Positions 1-53,700 of a stretch of 64,000 nucleotides of DNA are shown here, piece by piece (position 1 is the first letter of the stretch; every line of letters begins with the position of its first letter). The notes below the pieces were generated by a model. That model was not told where the DNA came from and ran no database searches. It saw nothing but the letters and a program-made list of their open reading frames with translations. Source of the DNA: Mytilus edulis (lineage: Eukaryota); NCBI RefSeq assembly GCF_963676685.1, contig NC_092352.1, positions 44,144,001 to 44,208,000 on the forward strand. The letters are read 5' to 3'. The position numbers and the translations under genes are program-made.

Positions 1-1
1 T

Positions 2-1527
2 ATCAAACATAAACTAAAAGAACTAGCCAAGGAATTTGTTTTTGTCCCGGCAGATAAAGCTGCTAATAATATTATTATTGTTTGACGTAAATTTTACATT
101 GAGGTTCTGAAAAAGGAAATCACCAATTCACCAACATTCCAACTGACTCTATTTTCAGAAAACGAAATCTGTAACAAACATAAACTTTTAGCCACTGCTT
201 TACAAGCAGAGCCAAATACAATGAAAGTCCCAACTATGTATTGGCTTCCGAAGCTACACAAAACCCCTTACAAATATAGATTTATTTCGTCTTCAAGCCA
301 TTGTTCAACTACTAAATTGTCTATTCTTCTTACCAGCACACTTGGTACAATTAAAAACCTGATAATAAATTGTTCAAATAAGGCCTTCGAAAATAGTGGA
401 ATAAATTACTTTTGGAGTGTCAAGAACTCGTTGGAAGTACTTGATAAATTGCATGCTTATATTGGTGATTTTGAATCTGTTCAAAGTTTTGATTTTTCTA
501 CCCTGTATACCACATTGCCTCACATTCTCATTAAGAAAAAATTCACACACCTAATTAAATGGGCATTCAAAAAATCAGAATGTGAATATATATGTTCAAA
601 CTCTTTTGGGTCATTTTTTAGTAGCAATAACAAAAAAACTATGTTAATTGGACATGCTTTGATACTATATATGCCCTTGAATTTTTACTAGATAACATTT
701 TTGTTCGCTTTGGGGATTCCGTATATCGTCAGATTATCGGAATTCCAATGGGGACTAACTGTGCACCACTTATTGCGGACCTGTTTTTGTATTGTTATGA
801 GTTACAATTTATGACAAAAATAAGCAAAGACCCATCGAAACAACATCTGATAAACAAATTTAATAATACTTTTAGATATTTGGATGATATTTTGGCTCTC
901 AATAATGACGACTTCAGTATGTATATTAATGAAATTTTTCCTGTTGAACTTACTTTAAATAAAGCTCATACTAACAATGACCACTGCCCTTTTCTCGATC
1001 TTGATATCTATATCGCTAATGGAAAGCTGAATACTAAAATTTATGATAAAAGGGATGATTTTTCATTTCCTATCGTTAATTATCCGTTTTTAGATGGTGA
1101 CGTTCCCTTGTCACCATCTTACGGTGTTTATATATCTCAACTTGTACGATTCGCTCGTGTATGTAACACTGTTTTAGATTTTAACGAGAGAAATTTATGT
1201 ATTACTGAAAAATTATTACACCAGGGTTTTCGATATCACAAACTAGTCAAAACATTTACTAAATTTTATCATCGGTATAAAGACATCATTCGTAAATATA
1301 GCTCAACATGCAGACTTCTAATACGTTCAGGTATTTCACATCCAATTTTTTATGGTAATATTCTTTATAAAGCACAAAGGTGTCAGTATTCACCTCAGAA
1401 ACTTAAAAAACCTTTGAATAGACTTATTAAGAAGGGATATAATTACGATACTGTTGTCAAGTCATTAAAGATTGCATATTTTGGCGTTAATATTGAGTCA
1501 CTGATAAGGTCTTTGCATCGGAACTAA
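2..1527 (+). CDS. PLE reverse transcriptase, 5'-partial; in-frame TGA at 83-85 (putative Sec); 1-nt frameshift at about 629
   Basis: Frame 2 reads IKHKLKELAKEFVFVPADKAANNIIIV*RKFYIEVLKKE straight into ORF 221-691. From 631, frame 1 reads QKNYVNWTCFDTIYALEFLLDNIFVRFGDSVYRQIIGIP into ORF 748-1527. Confidence 0.85.
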
Positions 1528-1574: not shown

Positions 1575-1647
1575 TTTTCATATATGTTATGATGGTATGA
1601 TACTAAACCCCTAACGGGAAGGATTGTGCCTGATGTTCATATGATGA
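1575..1647 (+). promoter_or_regulatory. SECIS element (type II) in the PLE 3' UTR
   Basis: ATGA 1589-1592, 12 nt, AAA 1605-1607, apical ministem CCC/GGG, TGAT 1631-1634. Upper stem GGTATGAT/ATTGTGCC; lower stem CATAT/ATATG. Confidence 0.8.
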
Positions 1648-2031
1648 AATCATAATCTTTCAGTCAGTTTAATTGAAGTCTGGAGCTGGCATGTCAGTTA
1701 ACTGCTAGTAGTCTGTTGTTATTTATGTATTATTGTCATTTTGTTTATTTTCTTTGGTTACATCTTCTGACATCAGACTCGGATTTCTCTTGAACTGAAT
1801 TTTAATGTGCGTTTTGTTATGCGTTTACTTTACTACATTGGTTAGAGGTATAGGGGGAGGGTTGAGATCTCACAAACATGTTTAACCCCGCCGCATTTAT
1901 GCGCCTGTCCCAAGTCAGGAGCCTCTGGCCTTTGTTAGTCTTGTATTATTTTAATTTTAGTTTCTTGTGTACAATTTGGAAATTAGTATGGCGTTCATTA
2001 TCACTGGACTAGTATATATTTGTTTATGGGC

Positions 2032-2100
2032 CAGCTGAGGGACGCCTCCGGGTGCGGGAATTTCTCGCTACATTGAAGACCTGTTGGTGACCCTCTGCTG
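2032..2100 (+). ncRNA. Putative four-way-junction RNA motif in the PLE 3' region
   Basis: Closing stem CAGCTGAGGG/CCCTCTGCTG encloses three hairpins, one with a C(UCCG)G tetraloop. Covaries with the copy at 17026-17094. Confidence 0.55.
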
Positions 2101-2504
2101 TTGTTTTTTATTTGGTCGGGTTGTTGTCTCTTTGACACATTCCCCATTTCCATTCTCAATTTTATATAAAATATAAACATCAACTGGACGTTATTGATAG
2201 ATATATGCTCGGTATATCTGTTTGGGAATCTTGATGTTCAAGTACTCTGGCACTGGGTGACTTTTGGTTTTGGCAATAATGTTGCAACTTATAGCGTATA
2301 AATTTATCTAAATCTTGATTATTTTACTATGATTTAGAGATAAAATTAATACATGTACTAGTAAACAAATTTTAGAATAAAAGTTTAAGTCCGAATGGCG
2401 TTCAAGAGATGCAGTCTGATGATTAAAAAAATTAAGAACTTACAAATTGCATTTTAAAAAAACACATCAACATAAAATGTGATTGGAATGAATTCTGTAA
2501 CAAT

Positions 2505-2913: not shown

Positions 2914-4020
2914 CCGCGGAAAAACAGAAAGACCAGACATGGAGATGGTGGAGAAACAGGGGCTAGTGATATGATGTTAGAAACTCTAGAAAATCAGGTG
3001 TCTGAGACTAAAGATATAATGTCAACAAATATTATAAAGATGCACGAGAGGGAGGGTAAATTAGAGGATCTGGAATCTAGAGCTGGAATTCTGGCGGAAC
3101 AGACGGTAAATTATAAATTATAAATTTGATCCTTTAAAGCTTTAATTTCACTCTTCTTCATGGTTTCAGTTAGATAAACACTACTATAAGTAGAAGCAAA
3201 TGAATTCGGATCAAAAAGAAAATATGTTGATAGGTCGGGACAATAGCAACGCAATTAGTCTAAAAGTGGGGTAACTATCAAAAAAGAACAACTGCACATT
3301 TTCTGATCTCTCGTCCATGATGTTAATATCTTTTTTCAACGGGTTGCAATTGTTTATTCACCATGTTACTAAAAATACCCGTATAAGCTTTAACAGACAT
3401 CGGTACACGCTTTTGAATTTCGAGGCAAGGGTTTGGCTTTATAAATATTTTGATATGAGCGTCACTGATGAGTCTTATGTAGACGAAACGCGCGTCTGGC
3501 GTACTAAATTATAATCCTGGTACCTTTAATAACTATTAAGTTGAAGAAACAAATGTCTGCTATACTCAAAAAAAAATTATTGATCTTTCAATGAAGTTCT
3601 GTTGACGTTATGTAATTTTTAAAACTTATATACATAGCCACTGTAATTGTTTACTAACTTAGTGTGTTTAATAAAATATTAAGATATTACATAATTTGTT
3701 CTCACCCAACTCTCAATGTTTGTAGCATTATAACATCTGCCGATTAATCCCAATACTTGGTGTTGGTTTTTATTAGATTATTTGAAATGTTTGTTTTTGC
3801 TTTGAATATGATAATTTTTCAATTGAAAAAACTTTTTTTATTTTTATCTATTTTTTTGCAGACTGCCGAATTTAAAAAGCTTGCAGTAAAAACTCGACAG
3901 AAAGCTAAAAAGAAGTCTAAAAGAATGACTTATATTTTCGTCGGCGTTATAGTAATTGCAGTAGCACTTATAATCTTAATACTTGTTTTGTATGGAACTG
4001 GTGCTTTAGGTGACAGCTAA
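2914..4020 (+). CDS. VAMP/synaptobrevin-like R-SNARE (exons 2914-3105 and 3862-4020; first exon or start not located)
   Basis: LENQVSETKDIMSTNIIKMHEREGKLEDLESRAGIL resembles the synaptobrevin motif with a zero-layer Arg. Phase-0 GT-AG intron 3106-3861. Basic linker and C-terminal TM helix IFVGVIVIAVALIILILVLY. TAA at 4018-4020. Confidence 0.8.
3460..3501 (+). ncRNA. Type I hammerhead ribozyme (intact core)
   Basis: Stem I CGTCA/TGGCG; CTGATGA; stem II GTC/GAC; GAAA; palindromic stem III ACGCGCGT; GUC cleavage triplet ending at 3496. Confidence 0.88.
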
Positions 4021-13138: not shown

Positions 13139-13448
13139 GTCGTAACTACAATCCTCTTCCCTTTCATGAATGTGACCTACCGAATTAGACCATTTACCGG
13201 ATTTGTTATCACATAAGCAACACGACGGGTGCCACATGAGAAGCAGGATCTGCTTACCCTTCCGGAGCATCTGAGATCACCCCTAGTTTTTGGTGAGGTT
13301 CGTGTTGTTTATTATTTAGTTTTCTATGTTGTGTCATGTGTACTATTGTTTGTCTGTTTGTCTTTTTCATTTTTAGCTATGGCGTTGTCAGTTTGTTTTA
13401 GATTTGTGAGTTTGACTGTCCCTTTTGGTATCTTTCGTCCCTCTTTTA
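13139..13448 (+). mobile_element. 3' terminal fragment of a second PLE family
   Basis: Near-identical to 18851-19158, which directly follows PLE RT coding remnants. Confidence 0.75.
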
Positions 13449-13648: not shown

Positions 13649-14065
13649 GATATAGGCAGATGTGGTGTGTGTGCCAATGAGACAACTCTCCATCTTAATA
13701 ACAATTTAAAAAAGTAAACCGTTATAGGTCAATGTACGGACTTCAACACGGAGCCTTGGCTGACACCAAACAATAAGCTATAAAGGGCCCCAAAATTACT
13801 AGACATAAGTGTAAAACCATTCAAACGGGAAAACCAATGGTCTAATCTATATAAAAAAAAAACGAGAAACGAGAAACACGTATAGATTACATAAACAAAC
13901 GACAACTACTGTACATCAGATTCCTGATTTAGGACAGGTGCAAACATTTTAATGGATCCAAACCTTCTCCCTTTGTTTTAAACAGTAGCATAAAATCACA
14001 ACATAGAAAAATACACGATAAAATATCAATTGGCAGGCTTAACTCAATCAAAAAACGTACATTAA
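13649..14065 (-). mobile_element. Non-autonomous PLE-like 3' terminal repeat
   Basis: Minus strand carries CCTGTCCTAAATCAGGA (compare 1904-1920) and the end GTTGTCTCATTGGCAC..CCACATC. Related ends at about 7675, 24735, 30190 and 45940. Confidence 0.55.
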
Positions 14066-14141: not shown

Positions 14142-14376
14142 TTTCAAAATTTTGAATATTTGAAATACTAAGGCTTTTCTACCTCCGGCATAGATAACCT
14201 TAGCTGTATTTGACAAAACTTTTAGAAATTTTGGTCCTCAATGCTTTTCAACTTCGTACTTTATTTGGCCTTTTTAACTTTTTTGGATTCGAGCGTCACT
14301 GATGAGTCTTTTGTAGACGAAACGCGCGTCTGGCGTATATACAAAATTTAGTCCTGGTATCTATAATGAGTTTATT
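14142..14376 (+). mobile_element. Retrozyme-like repeat carrying a hammerhead ribozyme
   Basis: Body shared with copies at about 2505, 19260 and 26100. Confidence 0.75.
14294..14335 (+). ncRNA. Type I hammerhead ribozyme (intact core)
   Basis: CGTCA-CTGATGA-GTCttttgtaGAC-GAA-ACGCGCGT-C-TGGCG. Confidence 0.88.
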
Positions 14377-14822: not shown

Positions 14823-15459
14823 TTAAATAATGCATACGTAATAAGTATGACGTTATTATAATTACCCTCCAAATAAACTATTTGATGAGATAAATGAGTC
14901 GTACGACTGATGTTGATCAGAGAGTATCCTCAAGGAATATCATCATAAGTATCCTCTCCAATAGAATTTGCATGGAATATAACGGAGCATTACTCTAACA
15001 CAGAAACGTAAATTAGACCGACGGGAGATGAACGGTCAAGTGATATCCTTAATTCCGCCTTCACCTAGCGCCTACGAAATATTACCCTGTTATACCAGTA
15101 CGAAAAAGAAAATCGGTGTTAAAGTATGATTTTATTTTCCCTAGTAAGGAAAGTGATAGCGGGAAAAGATTTTATGTTAACAAGTTCGAATGTATTCAAA
15201 AGTGTTGAGAAATTGAGCAAAAGTTAGTATTACATATTTCCTCACTCCTTATTCACAAGTTACCATTTTTTATTCTGATAGTTCCTGGGTCCATTACTGA
15301 TTAAACTGGGAGAACCAAATTAGGTTTGAGAAGAACCACTTCTGGTAGAGCAATATATTAACACAACTAATATATAATGGTAAGTAAAAAAAATAATATT
15401 TCCTTATGTACTTGTACATATGTTCTTCATTTTAGTTTATTTCGGACACAATTATTTAA

Positions 15460-16340
15460 GTAAATAAAGGCAACAGTAGTATACCGCTGTTCAAAACTCT
15501 TGGACAGAAAACAAAAATCGGGGTAACAAACTTAAACTGAGGGAAACACATTAAATATAAGAGGAGAACAACGACACAACATTAAAATGCAGCACACACA
15601 GAAACAGACTAAGCGTTAGACAAAATCCTACATGAATTTGGGATAGATAAATGCCGTGACAAGTCTTATAGTAATGTGAATTCACACTAAAAAATAAGAG
15701 AAAACAAACGACACAACGGAAACACAACGTTAAAATGTAACACACACATAAACGAACTATAATATAACAATGGCCATATTCCTGACTTGGTACAGGTCAT
15801 TTTTAAAGGAAAAATGGTGGGTTGAACCTGGTTTTGTGGCATGCCAAACCTCCCTCTTTTATAGCCACGTGAAATATAACATTAGAATGACAACACAACA
15901 TTACAGGACTACAATAAAAATAAATAGGAGGACACAATTAACAAAGAAACACACGAATAAAAGCTAACAAAAGGCAGCAAGTTTAAAATTTTAATACGCT
16001 AGAAGTTCATTTTGTCCACACAAGACTTACCAGTGACACCAAGATACAAAAGTTTGAAAGCCGAAACAAGTACAAAGTTGAACAGCATCGAGGACCAAAT
16101 TTTCAAAAAAGTTGTGCCAAAAACGGCCAGGGTTTTCTGTTAGGTACCAGAACATCCCAATAATTTAGGATAATTTATACTTTTGCAAACAGTAAATTTT
16201 ATAAAATGGCTATACAAAAGATATACATGATAAAACTGAAGTATAAACTAATTACAGGAAACAACCGAAATACATTACATAACCCGACAAATGCATCACA
16301 AAAAATAGACACATACGAATAAGTCAAAACCTCAACGCTA
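15460..16340 (-). mobile_element. Composite non-autonomous element: degenerate hammerhead unit plus PLE-type 3' motif
   Basis: Minus strand reads GTCACTGGTAAGTCTTGTGTGGACAAAA (mutated HHR core, about 16010-16037), then CCTGTACCAAGTCAGGA (about 15779-15795). Confidence 0.6.
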
Positions 16341-16757: not shown

Positions 16758-16875
16758 TGTATATCTATAGTAATTATTTATTTTAAGAAATTTTTATAGT
16801 TTCGTTATTATAATGCCATTTGTATCACTGTCGTGAAAACGACAAAGATCTGTATAAACTTTAATTCATACTCAT

Positions 16876-17160
16876 AACCCCGCCGCAATTATGCAGCTGT
16901 CCCAAGTCAGGAGCCTCTGGCCTTTGTTAGTCTTGTATGATTTTTAATTTTAGTTTCTTGTGTATAGTTCGGAGTTTAGTATGACGTCCCTTATCACTCT
17001 ACTAGTATACATATCTTAAAGGGGTCAGCTGAAGGACGCCTACGGGTGCAGGAGAATCTCGCTACATTGAAAACCTATTGGTGGCCTTCGGCTGTTGTCT
17101 GCTCTGTGGTCGGGTTGTTGTCGCTTTTACATATTCCCCATTTCCTTTCTCAATTTTATC
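16876..17160 (+). mobile_element. 5'-truncated copy of the Naiad 3' region
   Basis: Aligns by eye to 1883-2166 (AACCCCGCCGCA...CTCAATTTTAT). Confidence 0.8.
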
Positions 17161-17534: not shown

Positions 17535-17620
17535 GTCATAGATACCAGGATTTAAATTTTATATTTGCGTCAGACGCGCGTTACATCTCCAAAAAAATTA
17601 TCAGTGACGCTCGAATCCCA
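17535..17620 (-). mobile_element. Degenerate hammerhead repeat fragment
   Basis: Reverse complement GAGCGTCACTGATAA...CGCGCGTCTGACG. Confidence 0.6.
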
Positions 17621-17869
17621 AAAATGTATAAGTCAGCTCTTATTTTTTAGATGAATTATCATTGATATATGGTCATTAGTACAAATTAACTGTTTACAAA
17701 ACTGATTTTTTCGAGAGAAAAAAAAAAAACAGTTGAAGGCTGTTCTACCTTAGTTGTATGTTGCTAAACCACTCGGAATTAATAATCTACAACTTTATAC
17801 TTTAGTTGACATCTTAACTTTATATAGATGAATCGTATAAAATTGTAATTCTAGTATCCATGATGAGTT

Positions 17870-19158
17870 GATTTACAGTATAAAGAAAGATAAGAAGTTA
17901 GCAATATCCTTTAACTTTACGTTCCGCTATATAGATGATGTTCCCTCACTAAATAATACAAAATTTGGCGACTATGTTGAACGAATCTATATCATCGAAC
18001 TAAAGATAAAGGAGACTACAGATATAGCTCATATATTGACTTACATCTAATAATTGACAATGAGGGTCGATTGAATACAAAACTTTACGACAAAAGAGAT
18101 GATTTCAGCTTCCCAATTGAGAAATTTACATTTCTATGTAGTATCATTTCAGCAGCACCTGCATATGGAGTATATATCTTCCAAATGATACATTATTCCC
18201 GTGCTTGTATTTCCTATCAGGAAGTACAACACTAATTCATGGTCCCATTGCTTGCTATGTTAAATTCCTCCGTTTTAAGCAAGCACGCCTCTTTTGTTTT
18301 AAGTTCCAATAAAGTGGCAATCATTGCATGTCAAAGCAATACTTTATGGTGTTCTGTACCTAAAAAATCAACAAACCTTTAATGTCATATAAGAAAGAAC
18401 TGGTTCCCGGAACTTCGGATGTACCAAAACAGGTACTTCAGATCTGACTAACAGACAAAATGTACCCTCTTTTTTAAAATTTGGTGCAGTTTTTTTTATA
18501 TTCAAATTAAAAGACCAAAAGTGTTCTACAATGATCACCAGTCTTTCAGCTTTCATTTAATACAAAAAAAACTAAATATTCTACGTATTTTGAAAGTCAC
18601 ACTCATGCGTAGGAACTATTTTGTGTTAAATATGTACTACTTTCTGGTATGTGCTTTCTGGCCGGGCCCGAATTAGTGGTTTTACACCATCATGATTTCC
18701 TTGATATAGGATGCTACTCAAAAGGATGCTATTGAACCAAGAGTTGATGAAATTGAAATCATCCCTTCCTAAATTTTACGGACGCCATTACGAGTTGGGT
18801 GACCGTCATGGAATTACCGTTTCAAAGATGATATCAGATATGTTCCTTGTGTCGTAACTACAAAACCCTTCCCTTTTCACGAATGTGACCTACCGAATAA
18901 GACTATTAACCGGATTTGTAATAACATAAGCAACACGACTGGTGCACATGTGGAGCAGGATCTGCTTACCCTTCCGGAGCACCTGAGATCACCCCAAGTT
19001 TTTAGTGGGGTTTGTGTTGCTTAGTCTTTAGTTTTCTATGTTGTGTCTTCTGTACTTTTATTTGTCTGTTTGTCTTTTTACTTTAAGCCATGGCATTTTC
19101 AGTGTATTTTGTATCTATGAGTGTGACTCTCCCTCTGTTATCTTTCGTCCCTCTTTTA
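17870..19158 (+). pseudogene. Decayed 5'-truncated PLE (second family): RT C-terminus plus 3' UTR
   Basis: FNFTFRYIDDV, RLNTKLYDKRDDFSFPI, PAYGVYI; after an insertion, LKSSLPKFYGRHYEL. Contains frameshifts and stops. Confidence 0.8.
18220..18688. mobile_element. Non-autonomous DNA transposon nested in the PLE
   Basis: Imperfect TIRs GGAAGTACAACACTAATTC / GAATTAGTGGTTTTACACC. ATCA duplicated on both flanks; removing the element rejoins the RT. Confidence 0.7.
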
Positions 19159-26089: not shown

Positions 26090-26672
26090 ACTTTGAGTTG
26101 TCACTGATATGGCCATAATTATAAATTAATTTTGGAAATTCCTAGGCTTTTCTGCCTCAGGAAAAGATCACCTTATGGTGCAAATTTAAAATGTCATGAT
26201 TCTGCATGGGATCTTTGATGAGTTTATTATGCTGCATTTGACAAAACTTTTCAGAATTTTTTATTATCAATGCTCTTCAACTTCGTACTTCATTTGGCAT
26301 GTTTACATTTTTCATTTGAGAGTCACTGATGTGTTTTTGCAGACGAAAGCGCGTCTGGCGCAAATACAAAATGTCAATCTTGATAACTATCGGACGACTT
26401 TATTAACAACCAGGCACTGGGTCGATGCCACTGCTGTGCGATATTTTCTTCCCCAATGGTATCACCAGCCTAGTAGTCAGAGTTGACATGAATTATCTTT
26501 TATACGGTCACAATTATAAATTATCTGTTTACAAAACTTTGAAGTTTTGAAATACTAAGGCTTTTCAGTACCTCATGAATAGATCACCTTTGATCTATTT
26601 GGCAAGACTTTCAGGAATGTTTGGTCCTCAATGCTCTTCAACTTTTTACTTTAATTGGCCCTTTTAACTTTT
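26090..26672 (+). mobile_element. Partially tandem retrozyme-like repeat with degenerate hammerhead
   Basis: Body occurs twice (CTAGGCTTTTCT / CTAAGGCTTTTC; CAATGCTCTTCAACTT). Core GTCACTGATGTG...GACGAAAGCGCGTCTGGCG is damaged. Confidence 0.65.
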
Positions 26673-34319: not shown

Positions 34320-37300
34320 TATAAGATAAGATAAGATAAGAAAACTTTATTTTGATTCGGCATAAGTACAAATAAGCAACACAAGCTCTAAGGAGCTTTT
34401 GACCGAATATAAAAACATATAAATAACATATAAAAACAGTGCATTAATTGAGACATATAAAACAACCTGTAATACAAAGTTGAAATCTCACATACATAGC
34501 ATGAAATTAAAATAAGCAACAAATTATCGAATGAAGTAAAAACATGCTAGACCAGATCAACCAAAAGCAGCATAAATAATAAACAGCTCAAGAATTATCT
34601 GCAAGCAGAACAGCGACATTCCAAACCGTTCCAGGACTGAACAAGACTTTTAAAATGTGAAAAACTGTTTTCAGTCCTGAAATGGGTTGGAAGGCTGTTC
34701 CATAATGTAGCAGCAGCAAATTTGAACGATTTTTTTTTACCGTAACGGGCTGACTTGACCTGTGGAATTTCAAGAATATTTACATACCTGAAAGAATATT
34801 TAGATTTTTTGACATTCACCAAATTTTGTAAGCACACAGGAGCTATGTTGTTAATTATTTTAAAAGTTTCTAGAGCCATTGTTCTTATCCGTCTGATCTG
34901 CAAGGAGGGCACCTTAGGTTTAAGTAAGAGGTCCTCGTAAGAGCTGGTAAAACCCTCATATACAAAACGGAGTGCTCTTTCCTGCACCTTTTATTGTTTT
35001 TTGGAATTTTTCTCAGTGCAAAAATGCCATGCCAAAGGGCAAAAATTAAATTTCTAAGAATAAAAGTATGAAATATAGAAAGTTTACGAAGTCTATCCAA
35101 ATCTGAGCCTAAACGTTTTAAAACATTTAATTGCTGTGATGCCTTCCTACAGATTGAGCTGATATGAACATCAAAGTTTAGCTGGTAGTATATTTCTATG
35201 CCTAATAATTTTACTGTTTTTTTACATGTAAGGTTCGAATTTTAAATATGTATAGATGGGTTCTTTTCAAAGGTCTTTTTGCCAACAGCCAAAACTTGAA
35301 ATTTGTCAGGATTTGCTTGCATATTATTCACCCTGAACCACTCAATAAGTATTTATGAATCAGATTCCAAAGTTGATATTAATAAATCGAAATCTGGAGT
35401 ACAGAAAGAAAGTATTGTCATCTGCATAGTTATATAAACTACCATTTTTAACATAGATAAATATCATTTATAAATATGTTAAACAATAAGGCCCTAGTAT
35501 CGAACCCTGTGGTACGCCTTTATGGATGTCAGCCCAACCACTCAGAACATTGTTGACTTTAATTTCATGTTTTCGATTAGATAAATAAGAGCAACTGCAT
35601 TGGGGGTTAAACCATATGCTGATAATTTATCTAGCATAATATTGTGCGACAGGCAGTCAAAAGCCTTAGAAAGATCCATTATTACCGCTGCAATGTACTG
35701 GTTTTTATCAAGAGCTTCACGCCAGTCTTCTAACACTCTGAGATGTGTGGTCTGACATCCATGTCCACATCTAAATGCACAAAAAAATGGATTTAATATT
35801 TTATCAAAATAATCAGTTTCATATAGTTCTTCAAAGATTTTGGAAAATATGGATAAGACGCTAACTGGTCTATAATTTATTTTTAATAATGGGTCACTCT
35901 TTTTATGAAGGGGGGTCACTTGGGCTTCTTTATACTTATCGGGGAAACAGTTATTATCAATTGGCAAATTTACAAGAGTTGCCAGCTGTGGTGCAATATA
36001 AGATTTACATTTTTTTACTATTTTTGCTGGAATACCATCAGCTCCTGTAGCCTTCTTTATGTTTATTTTATTTTAAAAAAATTTCAACATTATCTTTAGA
36101 TACTTTTTTAAACTCAAAAACAGAATTATGTTTTCTGTTACTTAAAATTTCTTTTATAATACTTGGGTGATTTGAGGGGTCATATACCACATCTGCTCAA
36201 ATTTTGTCTGCTACTGTGGAGAAAAAATTATTAAAAACATTTAAACATTCATTTGAACAATTTACAATTTTGTCAATTTCACATAATAAAATTTTTTGCT
36301 CTCCAAAGTTCCCCTCTTTTTCCAAAAATGGTTTGACTGTTTTCCAAAAATCGCAAGATTTTGACCCACCAGAGCAACGTTCTAAAAAGTATACTTTTAT
36401 TTATTTTCTCTTTACCTTTGTTACCAAATTTCTTTGTTTTCTAAATTTCTCCCATTTTTTGTCACTCCGATTTTTAGTTTATTGTGAATAAAGCATTTGT
36501 TTTCTATATATGGCCCCTCTCAGTTCTTTATTCATACATGGAAGTGGTTTATTTCTTTGACCCCTAGATTTTACAGGTGCATGTTTATTTAATATGTTTT
36601 TAAAATCTTCTTCATAATCATCATATATACTTTTTAAATCTTTCTCAGTACATTTTTCTGAAATCTTTATTTTCTGTAAATCATTTGTAAATTCATCAAT
36701 ATCAAAAGTTTTGTAACTTCTATATGTTACATCCCTGCATTTTTGTGCAGGTAAATTCCCTTTCACAACTGTTGAAATAATATTGTGACAGTCACTAACA
36801 CCATTTGGACTTTTTATTGTTTTAAAACACAAATTCTTTTTATTTGTAATAATAACATCTACAAGGGATGGGTTACAACCCTTTTTAAAACATGTTGGGC
36901 CTTTAACCAGTTGGGACAAGTTGAAAATATCAAATATATCATGTAGAGTCTGAGATTTTTCAGCAGACAACATATCAAAATTTAGGTCACCAAAAATAAT
37001 AATATTGGCATATGACACAAAACATTTATCTAGTGATTTTGTAAAATTTTCAATAAAGTCATAATTTTTCATGGATGGAGGCTTGTATGCTCGAGGCTTG
37101 TATGCTCCCATAACAAGCCATTTGGCATAATTTATATAAATTTCATAGCAAATATTTTCAAGTATATCAGATTCGAAACATTGTTTTCAACTTTATCTGG
37201 GTAAGTAAGCCACCGCCATACTGATTTCTGTCACGCCTTTGTAATTTATATCCTTCAACTTGAAATAGGTTGTCTTGAAAGTTGATTCGGCAATCATCAG

Positions 37301-44768: not shown

Positions 44769-47700
44769 TCACCATCTTGGCATGTCTACACACTGAGAAA
44801 GGTATGGATACAGATGACAGTGAACTGTTTTAAATCTGAAAAGAAATGAGAATAAGAACACAATCTCAAGATATACCAGAAAATTTCAAAACATTGCTGA
44901 AACTATTATTGGTGTTCTTCATCATTTCTGTTTTAACAAGTAAATGAGATGCACAGATCTTCTTGTGCTTTTTTTTTTTTTAATTTACCTATATATATTA
45001 TTATGCTTTTTCAACTGACAATGTTGTTTTCTTCCATTTTTCTTCCATTTTAACTATTTCTAATACTGTTGATGTCATTTTCATGATAACTGTAAGATCA
45101 AAAAATTATTGCGTTCAGTTTTTATTATAAATTTAAACGAAAGGACAAAACTAAACATTAATTATTGCAATTTTAAACGAACGGACAAAAATGCAACATT
45201 GATTATTGCAATTTCAGGAAAAGCTGCATACAGATATATGTAGCAGATATTAAAATGTTAGTTATTACTATTGTGATACTCCCTTAATTGCATTATTCAA
45301 AACCTCATTTCTAAATTCAAAGTATCAATATATCTCATTATCATGATTATATTGAAAAGTTCAGAAAAAGTTTCAAAGGGAGATAATTATATAACTCATA
45401 TACAAGTATAAAACTTTATGATACTACATCGATGCACAGTAACCATATTTTGTAAATATTGTAGAAACTGATTTTATGTTTACCTTGTTGGATCTTTTTC
45501 ATGGCTGTACCCTTTTACATCTATCACATTACTGTTAAAATAACTTAAAGTCAGCTGAAAGAAAAATACAACTACTGCTATTGACTATGAATAATTTGTC
45601 ATTGCATAATGGCAAAATTTGTTTACAATGACAGAACAGTTCAATTAATCCTAATTAGCTGTATTGCTCATCATAAAATTAAATCAAATTCATTGAAAAT
45701 TTAAAAAAAAAATATAATTTTGATTGACAACTCCTTATTTTCTTTAGAATTTCTGTTGTTAATGTTAGAGATCTTTGATAATCTCTGATAATTTAATCAC
45801 AACATTTCACCAAAACTTTGCACTTTAAGTTCTGATTGATTTAGGCAATTTGAATTGATAGTTCATAGAGTGTCTTTTAATGTTGTAATATTACACAACT
45901 GTCTTAGGTGAGTGTGAAGGTTTTAATAAATTGTAACTTTGATGGAGAGATGTTTTATTGGCACTCATACCACATCTTCTTATTTAGCAGTACTGAAAGT
46001 AATGCAACTTTATAGAAAATTTCATTAATCTATCACTAGTAGTTCTAATTTAACTAACTTAAGCAACAAACCCAACAATTGTTGACACTGCTAAGGATGA
46101 CGACGCTGCTGCAACAAAAGTAACGAGTGTGTATGATTGCTGTCAGTGACTTTGGTGTACATACCTGATCAGAGAGTTGATGCTGAGGAATCCTATGTAG
46201 TCCCTCTAAGTGGGAATGAAATTCTTTAATTTTTGTTAATGGCACTTTCAATAGATGATCTGAAAAATAAGATGATTTTTTTTTTTAATTATTTAATTTT
46301 GCATGTTTGAATACTTCAGAAATCACCATACTAGACTTCAATATTATCTTGCAACTAAGCAAATCTATACAGAAAAGACAATTTTGAATTCAACAGCTAG
46401 TCTAGCAATGTCTATTTTTAGCTAATTTCTGTAATATTCTGTAATCATTAGCAAAAATGTAAAGATAATGGAAGAAACATAGATATTGCATTCTGGTCTC
46501 ATGTTAAAAATTAATAATACTGTAAGTCATGCAAAAAAACTACCATAAATAAAATACATGAATAATATGCTTATTATACAAATAACGAAGTACATTTTTG
46601 TACTTAAATCTGTTTTTATTGAAATCAATTTATATTTTAACATAAATTTAATTTCAGTAATCTTTTAAGAAGAAAAAATCATTATATATGCATTACACAT
46701 GTAACAAGTTATGGTTGTTGAAATTCAAAGAGAAAAAGAATTTCAAAATTTCTGAACTGTTAGATCATGTTTAATTATATGGAGTTTAGCAAATAAAACA
46801 TGATAATCAGTTAAAATTATTAATTATAGATCGAAAAAACACCACTTATGTTAACTAGAGGCTCTTAAGAGCATGTGTCCCTCACCTTGGTCTATGTGCA
46901 TATTAAACAAAGGACAGGGATGGATTCATGACAAAATTGTGTTTTGGTGATGGTGATGTGTTTGTAGATCTTACTTTACTGAACATCTTTACTACTAACA
47001 ATTTTCTCTATCTATAATACACTTGGCCCTTTAGTTACAAAAGATAATATTTTGTAAAATTTTTCAAAAATTTACCAAATTAATGAAAATTGTTAAAAAT
47101 TGACTATAAAGGGCAATAACTCCTTAAGGGGTCAACAGACCATTTTTGTCATGTTGACTTATTTGTAGATATTACTTTGCTGAACATTATTGCTGTCTAC
47201 AGATTATCTCTATCTATAATAGTATTCAAGATAATAACCAACTAGAGGCTCTAAAGAGCCTGTGTCGCTCACCTTGGTCTATGTGAATATTAAACAAAGG
47301 AAGCAGATGGATTCATGACAAAATTGTGTTTTGGTGATGGTGATGTGTTTGTACGTCTTACTTTACTGAACATTCTTGCTGCTTACAGTTATCTCTATCT
47401 ATAATGAACTTTGCCCAGTAGTTTCAGTGGAAAATGTTAGTAAAAATTTACAAATTTTATAAAAATTGTTAAAAATTGACTATAAAGGACAATAACTCCT
47501 TAGGGGGTCAATTGACCATTTCAGTCATTTTGACTTATTTGTAAATCTTACTTTGCTGTACATTATTGCTGTTAAAAGTTTATCTCTATCTATAATAATA
47601 TTCAAGATAATAACCCAAAACAGTAAAATTCCCTTAAAATTACCAATTTAGGGGCAGCAACCCAACAACCGGTTGTCCGATTCATCTGAGAATTTCATGG

Positions 47701-50700
47701 CAGATAGATGGCTTGATAAACACTTTTACCCCCATGTTAGATTTGCTCTAAATGCTTTGGTTTCAGAGTTATAAGCCAAAATCTACATTTTACCCCTATG
47801 TTCTGGTTTTAGCAATGGCGACAATCTTGGTTGGTTGGCTGGGTCACCGGACACATTTTTTAAACTAGATACCCAAATGATGATTGTGGCCAAGTTAAAT
47901 TAAATTTGGCTCAGTAGTTTCAGAGAAGATTTTTGTAAAAGTTAACAAAATGACGACAACTGACGATGACGACGATGGACGCCAAGTGATGAGAAAAGCT
48001 CACATAAAAATTAACATAATCATAAAGTCATTAGAATGAACCCAACTGAAAAAAGCATGTACCAAAAACTTTGAAATTATTCTATTTCATTCAACTATAC
48101 ACAAGTGTTACTTGAACTTACTTCTTAACCATGTTAACCTAATAAAACTAAATACTCCCACTATTTAAGCCTAATAAAATTGACAATATTAAACTGTAAA
48201 ACCAAAATGAAACTTTAAAATATACAAAACAACATCTACTATTGAAGAAAATGTAAGAAAATGTAAATAATACTCAAACAACATTAACAGTACTAAATAC
48301 AAATGATAATAAGTCTAAAGAAATGAAGATCTTTAAATTTTCAATCTTAAGTTCCTCCTCAAGACTTGTTAAACTCTCATACATTAACGTATTAAAGGTA
48401 AGTATCTTAAACAAGAGGCTCTCAAGAGCCTGTGTCGCTCACCTTTATTTGCCAATGCTTTGTAAATCATGTGAAATAAGGTTAAAACATAATTAATGGT
48501 ATTAGATATTAGATGTTATCAGATACTATAATGATATCTAAGATAATAACCAAAAATTTTCTTAAAATAACCAATTCACAGACAAAAACCCAACAAAACG
48601 TTGTCAAATTTGTCTGAAAATTTATGGGTAGATAGATCTTAATCTGATGAACATTTTTACCCCCTGTCAGATTTGCTCGAAATACTTTGGTTTCATAGAT
48701 ACATGCCACAATCTACATTTTACCTCTATGTTCTATTTAAAGCCATGGTGGCCATCTTGCTTGGTTGGCCAGGTCACAGGACACATTTTTTAAACTAGAT
48801 ACCCCAATGATGATTGTGGGCAAGTTTGGTTCAATTGGTCCAGTAGTTTCAGAGGAGAAGATTTTTGTAAAAGATTACAAAATTGTATAAAAATTATTAA
48901 AAATTGACTTTAAAGGGCAATAACTCCTTATGGGGTCGACTGACAATTTTATTCATGTTAACTTATTTGTAGATCTTACTTTGCTGAACATTATTGCTGT
49001 TTACAGTTTATCTCTGTCTATAATTATATTCAAGATAATAACCAAAAACTGCAAAATTTCTTTAAAATTACCAATTAAGGGGCAGCAACCCAACAACAGG
49101 TTGTTGGATTTGTCATAAAATTTGTTGGCAGATATATCTTGATCTGATTAACAATTTAACCCCCTGCCATATTTGCTCTAAATGCTTTAGTTTTTTTCAG
49201 AGAAATAAGCTAAAAACTGCATTTTACCCTATGTTTTATTTTAAGCCATGTTGGCCATCTTGGTTGATAGGCTGGGTCATTGAACACATTTTTAAAACTA
49301 GATACCCTAGTGATGATTATGGCTAAGATTGGTTAAATTTGGTCCAGTAGTTTCAGAGAAGAAGATTTTTGTAAAAGATTACAAAATCGTATAAAAATTG
49401 TTAAAATGGACTATAAAGGGAAATAACTCCTTCCAGGGTTAACTGTCAATTTTGGTAATGTTTATTTTGTAGATTTTACTTTGCTGAACATTCTTGCTGT
49501 TTACAGTTTATCTCTTATATAATAATAATATTTAAGATAACCAATAACGGCAAAATTTCCTTAAAATTACCAATTCAGGGGCAGCAACCCAACAACTGGT
49601 TGTCCTATTAATCTAAAAATTTCAAGGCATATATATCTTGACCTGATTAACAATTTTACCCCCTGTCATATTTGCTCTAAATGCTTTGGTTTCAGAGATA
49701 TAAGCCAAAATCTACATTTTACCCCCATGTTCTATTTTTAGCAATGGCAGCCATCTTGATTAGTTGGCCGGGGCAATAGACACATTTTTTAAACTAGATA
49801 CCCCAATGATGATTGTGGCCAAGTTTGGTTAAATTTGGCCCTGTAGTTTCAGAGGAGAAGATTTTTGTAAAAGTTTACGGACGCCGGAAGACGGATGACG
49901 ACGGAAGCCAAGTGATGAGAAAAGATCACTTGACCTTTTAGGTCAGATGAGCTAAAAAGTAAAAAAAAAACATTCCCCAAACATCATTTATATCTAAAAG
50001 AAGCAACTGATTTTTTCAATTGATGCAACATATGATGGCATATTTTTCTTGTGGTGTACAAACATAGATAAATGTAAAATTCTTTAAAAGTATAGATTAT
50101 TTAGATGGTGTTGAAATATACAAAATTCTTGGATTTCCTGTTTAGCAAATTGGAAAAGATGTGTAAATGGATTGTCGATTAAAAGATTTATAAACAGGTA
50201 ATAATTTTTTTATAAATGAGTGCAAGTGAGTATTAGAATCTACTGGTACCCTATTCAAATTATTCTACCACCAACTGTACCAGGGATTTCAACTGGAGTG
50301 TTTACAAAATGCAATCATAATAAAAGTATAAAAAGCTTTTCCAAAGTTTAAAGACAAAAAGATCCAAAATAAAAGAAAAGCAGTCCAACTTAAGTTGAAA
50401 GAAGAAAGGATCCTCTCAAAACAGGTTGTAGAGTAAAAATAAGAAATTTCAGTTTTATTAATCATATACCCCTTAGCTTTACATCTAGACTGGGATCATA
50501 TTCTGGTATTAAATTCTCCTGTTGCACACATAAAATATATTTCATTAAAATATGTAGTAGTTTTCAATTTTAGTGATGACTTCCCTATCTGTTCAATGAT
50601 GATTATTTTAGGATGATGAAATACATGTAATGATAAAACAAGTGAAACTGCGAGCTACTGCTCACTGATGATACCCCCGCCGCAAGTGGATAATATTAAT

Positions 50701-53700
50701 AGTGTAAAAATATGCAAGTGTTCGGTAAACAGGAAGTTGTCAAGTAATGAATCTGAAAACGCATCACACGGTATAGCTGACTTATATAAATCCTGAAACC
50801 AAATTTCAGAAATCCTTGTATTGTAGTTCCTGAGAAAAATGTGACGAAAATTTTTAACTTGGTTATCATGTGTAAAATCATACAAGTGTTCGGTAAACAG
50901 GAAGTAGTGGAGTGATGAATCTGAAAACGCATCACACGGTATAGCTGACTTATATAAATCCTGAAACCAAATTTCAGAAATCCTTGTATTGTAGTTCCTG
51001 AGAAAAATGTGACAAAAATTTTCAACTTGGCTATCATGTGTAAAATCAGACAAGTGTTCAGTAAACAGGAAGTAGTGGAGTGATGAATCTGAAAACGCAT
51101 CACACGGTATAGCTGACTTATATAAATCCTGAAACCAAATTTCAGAAATCCTTGTATTGTAGTTCCTGAGAAAAATGTGACGAAAATTTTTAACTTGGTT
51201 ATCATGTGTAAAATCATACAAGTGTTCGGTAAACAGGAAGTAGTGGAGTGATGAATCTGAAAACGCATCATACGGTATAGCTGACTTATATAAATCCTGA
51301 AACCAAATTTCAGAAATCCTTGTATTGTAGTTCCTGAGAAAAATGTGACGAAAATTTTCAACTTGGCTATCATGTGTAAAATCATACAAGTGTTCGGTAA
51401 ACAGGAAGTTGTCGAGTGATGAATCTGAAAACGCATCACACGGTATAGCTGACTTGTATAAATCCTGAAACCAAATTTCAGAAATCCTTGTATTGTAGTT
51501 CCTGAGAAAAATGTGACGAAAATTTTCAACTTGGCTATCATGTGTAAAATCAGACAAGTGTTCGGTAAACAGGAAGTTGTCAAGTGATGAATCTGAAAAC
51601 GCATCACACGGTATAGCTGACTTATATAAATCCTGAAACCAAATTTCAGAAATCCTTGTATTGTAGTTCCTGAGAAAAATGTGACGAAAATTTTCAACTT
51701 GGCTATCATGTGTAAAATCAGACAAGTGTTCGGTAAACAGGAAGTTGTCAAGTGATGAATCTGAAAACGCATCACACGGTATGGCTGACATATATAAATG
51801 TTGATACCAAATTACAGAAAGGGTGGATGTGTAGTTCCTGAGAAAAATGTGACGAAAGTTTCATGGGACGGACTGACTGACTGACGGACGGACTGACGGA
51901 CGGACTGATGGACGGACGGACGGACTGACAGACAGACAGAGGTAAAACAGTATACCCCCCCTTTTTTAAAGCGGGGGTATAAAAAGATAATGTTAAAGCA
52001 AATCACTCAGGTACTATAGAAACATTTATTTTTGTGGATACCAATTTTTGTTGATTGAAGAAACTTTGTCTTTTTTGGTTATATTCAATTTTGTGGTTTT
52101 TTGCTCAATTCTGCATAAAAGCCTAACGAAAATGTTTATATCTTTAACTTCAGGTTAACCTGTATCAATGAAATCCACAAAAAATGGTATACCACTTAAA
52201 ATAATGAATTCACAGTAACTAAATCATGTAAATAGTCAAAGTATGAGACACTGCAGAATAATAAACAAGATTTCAGTTGAAACTATTAAATAAATAAACA
52301 ACAAATGAACAACATGCAGTAAACTGAAAATAAAGCCAACATTAAATTTACAGACATAAAACACATGATAAACAACAGCAAACAACTTCACTGTCAGCAG
52401 ACTTACTATTCCTTTTCCTGTTCTAATAAATTCAATAACACATTTATATTTAAATTCATATTTAGACAATATAAATATTTAAATTAGAAAGGTGTCCAAC
52501 AAGTTTGTACAGTATCACAGTGTCTACAAACAAATTTTGTATGGTTCAGATGAAGAATTTCTTATGAATTTGTGTTTAAAAGTTTCATTAGTCCTGTGTT
52601 GATTTTTGTGCATTTTCTTAGTTAAAGGTATAATAGGAACTAAAGAACAGCATCAAATACATGAGCATGTCATCATGTTCATAATCAAACTTGCCAAATT
52701 TCTGTTTTAGAATTTGTAATTTAACCTAATTGCTATTATTTTGCAGTTGAGTGATAGAATTGAGAAATGTAATTGATATTTTCTGAAGATAGCAAGTTTA
52801 TTTCAATTTTAAAATTTTATTTAACAACTTAATAGACGATTAGTTTTTAAAATTGATTGGTTATCATATAAACAATGATAATTTGAAAGCAAGCTTGAAA
52901 GCTATTCTAGATTGCAATATGCCGCGTTTTCATCCTAAATTGAAAATTATATTGAAATAAAAGAAGAAGTGTCTGAGGACACAAATGCCCCATTCAAGCT
53001 TTGCAATTTTCCAATTTAAAAGAAGGCATTTCTTTAAAATGGCAAATGACTTGCTACCTAAAATCCAACTATATCTGTGTTTTTGTTCTTAGCATTGTGT
53101 AAGAGTTTCAGAAAAATTTGTAAGGGTTCTGCGGAACCCAGTGTCTCGCCTATTTTTGCTGTAAATTGCAGACTCAACAACAATGAGGGAAAAAATCAAT
53201 AAAAATATTCCTCTTGTTACATGTACTATTTTATGATTGCAAGAAAATCTAAGTCCATTTAAAAGTAAATTACAGAAAAAACTGAGTAATCTTTTTACAA
53301 ATTTTACTTCTGGATACAATATTATGATCATAAATAAGCTTCTGTCCAAGTTTGGTACAAACCCAGGATAGTTTAAGAAAGTTATTAAAATTTTTAAAAC
53401 TTTAACCACAGAGTGAATGTAATGGTTCCCTGGAGAAAAACTAAGTCCATTTAAAAGTAAAATATGGAAAAAATGGATTTATTTATTTACAAAATTTACT
53501 TCTGGATACTATCTTATGATCATAAACAAGCTTCTGTCCAAATTTGGTACAAACCCAGGATAGTTTAAGAAAGTTCTAAAAACTTTAACCACAGAGTGAA
53601 TGTAATGTTTCTCCGCAGAAAAAACTAAGTCCATTTATAAGTAAAATATGGAAAAAATGGAATTTTATTTTTTCAAAATTTACTTCTGGATATTATCTTA

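What the first reader, a model, noticed from the sequence alone, without database searches (positions are those of the whole stretch)
2032..2100. Covarying four-way-junction RNA in the Naiad 3' region
Seen in two copies (2032-2100 and 17026-17094). The 10-bp closing stem shows a compensatory G-C/A-U swap (GAGGG/CCCTC vs GAAGG/CCTTC). One hairpin loop changes UCCG to UACG but remains a C(UNCG)G tetraloop. A second hairpin is CGGGA/TCTCG, followed by an invariant linker CTACATTGAA and a third hairpin ACC-N4-GGT. Known: Naiads were described as lacking canonical hammerheads. Inference: an undescribed functional RNA, such as an alternative ribozyme, RT-recognition signal or tRNA-like cloverleaf.
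Basis: partly seen in the sequence, partly recalled or inferred. Interest (0 to 1): 0.7.

Follow-up and report, generated by a model that had tools for sequence, protein, structure and literature searches.

The report
Bulged RNA rod in Naiad tails
The tail of a very abundant bivalve jumping gene carries a conserved RNA fold, predicted to be a long bulged stem rather than the proposed four-way junction, at a fixed distance from where copying starts, so it likely tells the element's enzyme where to begin, while self-cutting is more likely done by a twister-like fold just upstream.

Summary
The repeat is real, and it is a conserved structured RNA, but probably not a four-way junction.

It lies in the 3' end of a selenoprotein-type Naiad retroelement, with about 100,000 copies in this genome (estimate). 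Ten lineages, 69-98% alike in RT where measured, keep its length, a GGGGC leader, a GGU/RCC helix, a capping hairpin and a UUGAAG bulge.

Across lineages the long-stem (rod) core stays paired in 29 of 42 changed cells (null 14-18). The rod is about 7 kcal/mol more stable in the main families. His compensatory swap is a single two-step event, A-U to A·C to G-C.

No Rfam or tRNA match was found. The bulge lies 93-98 nt from a fixed 3' end and always accompanies a terminal hairpin. Best reading: a clade-specific RT-binding and start-positioning domain (0.5, untested).

The hammerhead substitute is more likely a P5-twister-like fold at 1843-1928, which this scan had already noted on other DNA. In passing: twister-less Naiads carry a strongly covarying, uncatalogued pseudoknot (window 13214, 18927), a better new-ribozyme candidate.

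The parts
1..1527 (+). 3' part of a Naiad RT ORF, broken by a frameshift near 631-691; in-frame TGA at 83-85, at the Cys eight residues after the DKA motif (likely selenocysteine)
   Evidence: intact relative L201 (98% aa) has a 1002-aa ORF with 4 TGA at Cys positions
1579..1643 (+). SECIS-like element 51 nt after the stop codon
   Evidence: Rfam SECIS_1 32.3 bits, gathering score 35, E 2e-4
1843..1928 (+). Type-P5 twister-like fold with P1 replaced by two palindromes; predicted cut between 1883 and 1884
   Evidence: Rfam Twister-P5 match 1853-1919, 23.4 bits, gathering score 37.6, E 0.0023; pseudoknot letters change together between families; cut site inferred from recalled twister numbering
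2027..2031 (+). Conserved GGGGC leader (first G is T in this young subfamily)
2032..2100 (+). Bulged rod: P1 2032-2041/2091-2100, P1b 2043-2046/2086-2089, P2 2049-2053/2079-2083, capping hairpin P3 2054-2068, 3' bulge 2069-2078
2073..2078 (+). UUGAAG box in the bulge, 93 nt from the element's 3' end
   Evidence: invariant in 16 of 16 rows of A2; last letter differs in one old single copy, L421; spacing
2113..2146 (+). Terminal hairpin with UCWUU loop (inner stem 2125-2128/2134-2137)
   Evidence: co-occurs with the rod
2164..2165 (+). Fixed 3' end of the element, the inferred reverse-transcription start
   Evidence: 37 of 38 terminal copies in the unselected sample end within 0-2 nt; flanks differ
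16875..17160 (+). Second, 5'-truncated copy (subfamily B), beginning at the predicted twister cut; rod at 17026-17094 with private mutations
13716..13791 (-). Homologous rod of family E (RT 69-70% identical to the window's)
   Evidence: model R1 49.8 bits
30249..30327 (-). 5'-truncated family D copy holding only the 3' half of the rod
   Evidence: model R1 24.6 bits

Best explanation
The 69 nt are predicted to fold into a long bulged stem that, with the terminal hairpin behind it, likely forms the site on the Naiad RNA where the element's own EN-RT protein binds and is positioned to start reverse transcription at a fixed internal point about 65 nt downstream. Shown: location, fixed 3' end, constant spacing, pairing kept across lineages, invariant bulge box, co-occurrence with the terminal hairpin. 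Inferred: protein binding, and a role in choosing the start site. In tandem arrays the RNA runs on into the next unit, so it has no free 3' end or tail at that point and a start site has to be marked internally.
For: Fixed 3' end with variable 5' ends: main matches end at 2164-2179 in 59 of 60 loci; the 60th is the window's own place. In the unselected sample 37 of 38 family-A copies end within 0-2 nt. Tandem junctions L013, L021, L201 and L202 run straight into the next unit. UUGAAG lies 93, 96 and 98 nt from the end in families A, E and D, while the twister lies 282-301 nt away. Motif length is 72-76 nt against spacers of 104-122 and linkers of 21-34. Rod core: 29 of 42 changed cells paired (null 14.2-18.0, p at most 0.0002) and 17 of 26 double changes paired (null 9.6, p about 0.002) over 5 lineages. 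Pair 24-59 is paired in 16 of 16 rows with four pair types. G-U cells outnumber A·C cells 23 to 9 in the rod table, which favours the + strand RNA (my count). All 30 twister-bearing copies with the terminal hairpin also have the rod: 28 by pattern, 2 by eye. L447 holds three tandem copies of exactly the rod unit, as a template jump across its foot would give (one case). Precedent: the PLE PAc starts RT internally at a stem-loop downstream of its ribozyme, within the RNA stretch inferred to bind the protein (PMC11167929).
Against: No binding or RT data exist. The motif is absent from 96 of 100 outside Naiad-like loci, including about ten twister-bearing families with at least 280 nt after the twister, so it is not universal. 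Lineages are related: with one per clade (F, D, E) the rod core gives 17 of 25 paired (p 0.001-0.005), but double changes are 9 of 16 (p about 0.08). An earlier, narrower test found rod-only double changes no better than null: 5 of 10 versus 4.3. Sequence identity in the motif is no higher than in the spacer. The rod is not the lowest-energy fold in 4 of 16 real copies (C5, C3, D, E3). The A·C mismatch lineage transposed well: 3 of 13 unselected copies versus 1 of 13 for G-C.
Confidence: 0.5

Rival explanations
1. The rod works in the leader of the twister-cut, uncapped RNA. In a tandem array it lies about 150 nt after the predicted cut and about 380 nt before the next ORF's AUG, and would aid stability, translation or splicing control.
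For: Tandem geometry. Ribozyme-led leaders of R2 and L1Tc are thought to act like an IRES (PMC6765202 passages). A splice-acceptor-like tract lies 10-12 nt past the 3' end in families A and E, and PLE 5' UTR introns span this boundary (PMC8557442 passages).
Against: The spacing is constant to the 3' end, not to the twister. No spliced reads or piled read ends were listed across the tandem junction, at depth of about 10-25.
Confidence: 0.17
2. The rod with its UUGAAG bulge is a second, undescribed self-cleaving ribozyme.
For: A small invariant core in a covarying scaffold; retroelement ends are where ribozymes occur.
Against: A twister-like fold is already present upstream. No Rfam ribozyme matched at E up to 10. 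The 30 5' ends that fall inside the motif are spread out, with at most 2 at one place within a family. RNA reads show no piled ends. These negatives are weak: the PAc hammerhead also left no read ends.
Confidence: 0.1
3. The conserved boxes act as DNA (pLTR promoter or endonuclease site) and the stem is incidental or a cruciform.
For: pLTRs hold promoters (PMC8557442 passages); the conserved letters are short boxes at fixed spacing.
Against: Strand asymmetry of folding and the G-U excess on the + strand; many internal mismatches, which suit RNA better than a cruciform.
Confidence: 0.1
4. The reader's four-way junction is the working fold, or a switch partner of the rod that forms on protein binding; or the stem is a weakly selected relic.
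For: The UNCG-position hairpin remains formally pairable in all ten lineages (93.8% of cells) and carries UNCG loops in the A-C clade. The whole-structure score of the four-way model also beats its shuffles, because it shares P1 and P3 with the rod.
Against: The third hairpin is broken in E, F and F2 and has no two-sided change. The first has one in three, and that one is a private change in a single old copy. The four-way fold costs about 7 kcal/mol in the main families. RNAalifold picks the GGU/RCC helix of the rod.
Confidence: 0.13

Closest known systems
Internal RT-start stem-loop and protein-binding region of the Penelope-like element PAc (Frangieh et al. 2024, PMC11167929)
   Same: Structured RNA downstream of the pLTR ribozyme; genomic copy ends coincide with a fixed internal start; AT-rich targets.
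   Different: In PAc it lies inside the ORF start, is AC-rich, and gives two start sites and a tail. Here it is non-coding, a 69-nt bulged rod plus a terminal hairpin, one end dominates, and nothing is tested.
Naiad PLEs, selenoprotein families of clams and spiders (Craig et al. 2021, PMC8557442)
   Same: N-terminal GIY-YIG-like region, CxC, DKA with UGA eight residues on, SECIS after the stop, 5' truncation, tandem pLTRs, no canonical hammerhead.
   Different: The passages I read describe no 3' RNA fold other than SECIS, no twister, and no selenoprotein Naiads in mussels.
3' UTR recognition structures of R2 and other non-LTR elements (R2 protein binding to both UTRs in PMC6765202; LINE/SINE 3' stem-loops recalled)
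   Same: Clade-specific 3' structure presumed to recruit the RT for target-primed reverse transcription.
   Different: No sequence or Rfam match; the start here is internal to a read-through RNA rather than at a free 3' end.
Type-P5 twister ribozyme, Rfam RF02684 (for 1843-1928, not for the finding itself)
   Same: Core letters, both pseudoknots and the permutation match.
   Different: Below the gathering score; P1 is replaced by two palindromes; cleavage untested.

Membership tests
Naiad PLE (host element) | N-terminal GIY-YIG endonuclease, CxC linker, C-terminal RT in one ORF | tested here: met
   Seen by eye in the 1002-aa ORF of L201, 98% identical to the window's piece; Pfam gave no hit at E 0.001
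Naiad PLE (host element) | DKG motif changed to DKA | tested here: met
   DKA with UGA eight residues on, in the window and L201; criterion from PMC8557442
Naiad PLE (host element) | 5'-truncated copies and tandem pLTR arrangement | tested here: met
Naiad PLE (host element) | Placement in the Naiad clade on an RT tree with reference families | not tested
   No reference sequences fetched
Four-way junction as proposed | UNCG hairpin and ACC-N4-GGT hairpin kept by compensatory change across lineages | tested here: not met
   0 of 7 pairs with a two-sided change in A2; third hairpin broken in 3 of 10 lineages
Four-way junction as proposed | Favoured fold | tested here: not met
   Third-hairpin probability at most 0.01 in 16 of 16 copies; about 7 kcal/mol penalty in the main families
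tRNA or tRNA-like cloverleaf | Cloverleaf detected by ARAGORN or the Rfam tRNA model | tested here: not met
   0 genes in 8 loci; no tRNA family at E up to 10
Known small self-cleaving ribozymes (for 2032-2100) | Match to an Rfam ribozyme model | tested here: not met
Known small self-cleaving ribozymes (for 2032-2100) | Site-specific self-cleavage | not testable with these tools
   Indirect signs absent
Retroelement RT-recognition structure | Conserved structure at a fixed distance from the RT start, never lost in mobile families of its clade | tested here: met
Retroelement RT-recognition structure | Bound by the element's protein and needed for initiation | not testable with these tools
   Needs purified protein
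Type-P5 twister (upstream element) | Rfam score at or above gathering | tested here: not met
   23.4 and 21.8 bits against 37.6; the genome-wide family search rang nowhere, controls included
Type-P5 twister (upstream element) | Core letters and covarying pseudoknot T1 | tested here: met
   Rfam alignment; T1 reads CCC/GGG, CCT/AGG, ACC/GGT and TCT/AGA in different families
Type-P5 twister (upstream element) | P1 helix | tested here: not met
   The region is skipped by the model and holds two palindromes in each family

The most novel reading that the evidence does not exclude
The UUGAAG-bulged rod is a new small self-cleaving ribozyme, or a telomerase-like template-boundary element through which a TERT-related RT fixes an internal start on an endless tandem RNA. 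Naiad tails would then carry a two-module machine, a dimer twister plus an RT ruler, interchangeable with an uncatalogued pseudoknot RNA in sister clades.
Probability: 0.15. Interest if true: 0.8.

Novelty: new variant of a known kind. Interest (0 to 1): 0.42.

Why it matters
How Penelope-like elements choose an internal start for reverse transcription is open; only one element has been studied in vitro (PMC11167929). This domain gives a defined test substrate, supported by covariation, in a clade with intact ORFs and about 100,000 copies, and it concerns the retroelement RTs closest to telomerase. It also redirects the search for the missing Naiad ribozyme to the upstream twister-like fold and to the pseudoknot of twister-less Naiads.

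Tried and rejected
Rfam at gathering level over the whole window gave 0 hits; E-value scans of the motif gave only chance-level hits. ARAGORN found nothing.

The genome-wide Twister-P5 search was uninformative, as controls were silent too. A pattern for a guessed subfamily found 0 matches. The viral collection held no relative.

No RNA holder was listed on record. Four raw RNA runs show both strands about equally and mostly flank read-through, with no piled ends at the twister cut or in the motif and no splice joint at the tandem junction. They say nothing for or against function.

Hammerhead, HDV-like, hairpin, twister-sister, pistol and hatchet fits, Pol III A/B boxes, a T-loop and a hepadnaviral-epsilon analogy were compared by eye against recalled consensus features and did not fit consistently across families. 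So did loop-loop pairing of UUGAAG with the terminal loop or tail. These are not tool tests.

Homology to the pseudoknot of twister-less Naiads (a shared GGGU/ACCU-type helix): model R1 did not hit it.

Dropped before counts: L111-L140 copies of one D variant and L401-L420, which share flanks and look passively amplified; and copies with more than 6 gaps or not assigned to a family. Energies of F, F2 and E are distorted by missing insert columns, so one search was used for energies. Pfam did not recognise the ORF.

Full report
SETTING. The window comes from a 1.37-Gb animal assembly, probably a mussel (inferred; earlier scan notes on this genome say so). Window 1-1527 encodes the 3' part of a reverse transcriptase. 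A 98% identical metagenome contig, L201, holds a 1002-aa ORF with an N-terminal GIY-YIG-like region, a CxC linker and a DKA motif, with four TGA codons at Cys positions. A SECIS-like element follows the stop (32.3 bits, gathering score 35). These are the marks of selenoprotein Naiads given in PMC8557442 (passages). The finding lies 65 nt before the element's 3' end.

OBSERVATION. Both copies and most listed letters are there, and both fold better than shuffles on the + strand (z -4.57 and -3.31). Copy 2 breaks the second hairpin by a private change, and the linker is not invariant beyond these two subfamilies. The minimum-energy fold is not a four-way junction but a long stem, capped by a hairpin, with a 10-nt bulge on the 3' side. 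The two folds share the closing stem and the capping hairpin. They differ in whether GGU at 2051-2053 pairs locally or with ACC at 2079-2081.

FAMILY. Genome searches and 1.264 Mb of unselected DNA (the window, 200 kb beside it, and twenty 50-kb blocks) gave 187 hits to the 3' domain, 101 of them reaching the start of the motif. That scales to about 110,000 motif-bearing copies; the sample is not random. Ten lineages were resolved: A, A4, B, C1, C2, D, G, E, F (metagenome contig L203, RT 81% identical) and F2 (one old copy). E has an intact ORF 69-70% identical. The two arms of the stem align without gaps. A GGGGC leader, the GGU/RCC helix, GRG/CUC in the capping hairpin and UUGAAG in the bulge are kept. 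The motif is 72-76 nt long while the spacer varies from 104 to 122, but its identity between families (0.48-0.74 for distant pairs) is no higher than the spacer's.

ROD VERSUS JUNCTION. On 16 real copies the rod has 17 of 28 pairs with a two-sided change and 80.4% of cells paired; 0 of 500 shuffles reach it, and slid controls give 38-54%. The junction model also beats shuffles, through the shared helices, but its two own hairpins have 0 of 7 pairs with a two-sided change. RNAalifold chooses the rod's GGU/RCC helix, whose outer pair is formed in 16 of 16 rows in four types.

A held-out test took the fold predicted from family A and scored other lineages. The rod core kept 29 of 42 changed cells paired (null 14.2-18.0) and 17 of 26 double changes (null 9.6). 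With one lineage per clade it kept 17 of 25 (p 0.001-0.005) and 9 of 16 (p about 0.08). The third hairpin is broken in E, F and F2. Against this, a first and narrower version found rod-only double changes no better than null (5 of 10 versus 4.3) and junction-only single changes above a null that ignored transition bias; with transition bias that excess fell to p 0.09-0.17. The UNCG-position hairpin stays formally possible everywhere, so a switch cannot be excluded. Forced folding puts the junction about 7 kcal/mol above the rod in A1, A3, B, B2, A4, C1 and C2. The rod is the lowest fold in 12 of 16 copies. Lineages are related and no phylogeny-aware test was run.

A tree of 36 copies (14 G-C, 8 A·C and 14 A-U, drawn from 16, 8 and 30; midpoint root, with older families all A-U) nests G-C copies inside an A·C grade inside A-U copies, with weak support at the inner forks. 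The unselected sample holds 9 A-U, 3 A·C and 1 G-C. It is one two-step event, and the mismatch was tolerated.

WHAT IT IS NOT. No Rfam family at gathering level in the window, only chance-level hits on the motif, and no tRNA. Model R1 found the motif in 4 of 100 outside Naiad-like loci, L201-L204; many of the others lack a full 3' end, but about ten twister-bearing families with at least 280 nt after the twister lack it too. In this genome a second twister-bearing class has other 3' ends. So the rod is clade-specific. Eight paper searches listed no description of it. The supplements of PMC8557442, which mark hammerhead-core remnants, were not read, and subscription journals and repeat databases are not covered.

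THE RIBOZYME QUESTION. The same elements carry, at 1843-1928, a fold that matches Twister-P5 below the gathering score (23.4 bits; 21.8 in family E). Its pseudoknot letters change together between families, and two palindromes stand in place of P1. I saw this before looking up earlier notes; the scan had already reported it on other DNA, and one note lists an unknown fold and a terminal hairpin behind it. Three of 60 loci, copy 2 among them, begin at 1883-1884, the predicted cut, and 2 of 38 unselected copies begin within 3 nt of it; this is a slight hint only. Nothing comparable is seen inside the rod: 30 5' ends are spread over it. Four RNA runs show both strands and no piled ends, which is uninformative amid so many passive copies.

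MECHANISM. All solo copies stop at 2164/2165 before unrelated AT-rich DNA, while tandem copies run on into the next unit. The template RNA therefore has no natural end there, and the start must be set internally. This has been shown for the PLE PAc, where RT starts at a stem-loop downstream of the hammerhead and cleavage is not needed (PMC11167929, parts 1-2 of 4 read). The bulge lies 93-98 nt from the end in three families. The rod accompanies the terminal hairpin in 30 of 30 twister-bearing copies that have the hairpin. One copy carries a triplication of exactly the rod unit. I infer that rod and hairpin form the protein-binding and start-positioning domain, with the stem as scaffold and GGU/RCC plus UUGAAG as the read-out (0.5). 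Rivals: leader function in the cut RNA (0.17), junction switch or relic (0.13), second ribozyme (0.1), DNA element (0.1).

PAPERS SEEN. PMC8557442: passages. PMC11167929: parts 1-2 of 4. PMC6765202 and PMC11620745: passages. bioRxiv 10.64898/2026.07.22.740005: part 1 of 5. Others: search listings only.

VERDICT. A real, uncatalogued, clade-specific 3' RNA domain of a Naiad retroelement; fold corrected to a bulged rod; function likely RT positioning, untested. New variant of a known kind; interest 0.42. The pseudoknot of twister-less Naiads noted in passing deserves its own follow-up.

Noticed in passing
window 13214-13316 and 18927-19028 (+); L222, L223, L225, L226, L228, L229, L230, L233, L234, L237, L241, L264: A different Naiad clade (RT about 45-50% identical) carries, right after its ORF, a conserved pseudoknotted RNA: an invariant GGUG/CACC helix, a palindromic hairpin, a crossing 5-bp helix, and conserved GCUUAC and CCGG boxes. 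In 11 aligned sequences 97.4% of cells are paired, 8 of 14 pairs change on both sides, and the covariation score is 0.666 with 0 of 500 shuffles (the structure was derived from this alignment). None of the 12 outside loci has a twister. No Rfam ribozyme match; no earlier scan note found. Strong candidate for a new or rearranged, possibly dimeric, ribozyme.
   Followed up: partly
window 1843-1928 (+): P5-twister-like fold with two palindromes in place of P1, shared by many Naiad families here and in outside contigs; already noted by the scan on other DNA.
   Followed up: partly
window 83-85 and 1579-1643 (+); L201, L202, L204: Selenoprotein-type Naiads in this genome: 4-5 in-frame TGA codons, mostly at Cys positions, plus a SECIS-like element. 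The paper passages read name only clams and spiders.
   Followed up: partly
L013 1500-1485 (-); L201 135-150; L204 55-70: A pyrimidine tract ending in CAG lies 10-12 nt past the element's 3' end at tandem junctions in families A and E, like a splice acceptor at the pLTR boundary; no spliced reads were seen.
   Followed up: partly
window about 15420-16300 (-); L081-L110: An abundant family with a decayed hammerhead-like core followed by a twister-like fold and a different 3' end; it may record replacement of a hammerhead by a twister.
   Followed up: no
window 3448-3503, 14282-14337, 2723-2778, 26309-26364 (+), 17553-17631 (-): Type I hammerhead-like repeats (family D14), probably retrozyme or PLE derivatives; read by eye, not found by Rfam at gathering level.
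   Followed up: no
L447 1062-1294 (+): Three tandem copies of exactly the 78-nt rod unit inside one element.
   Followed up: partly
L111-L140 and L401-L420: Dead Naiad fragments that share flanks and have been amplified passively inside other repeats; they mimic subfamilies.
   Followed up: partly
L281-L300: Naiad RT sequences sit in contigs filed under bacterial genomes and MAGs; probably animal host contamination.
   Followed up: no
L235, L238, L240 (after the RT match): Three metagenome Naiad-like ORFs appear to run on past the RT into a further long coding stretch, by eye cysteine-protease-like.
   Followed up: no
window 50655-51860; 46850-49880; 53239-54010: A 168-nt tandem array with open frames on both strands, and several longer-period repeats typical of rolling-circle or MITE-like elements.
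   Followed up: no
window 35542-37186 (-): Fragments of a LINE-type element with endonuclease-like and RT-like frames.
   Followed up: no
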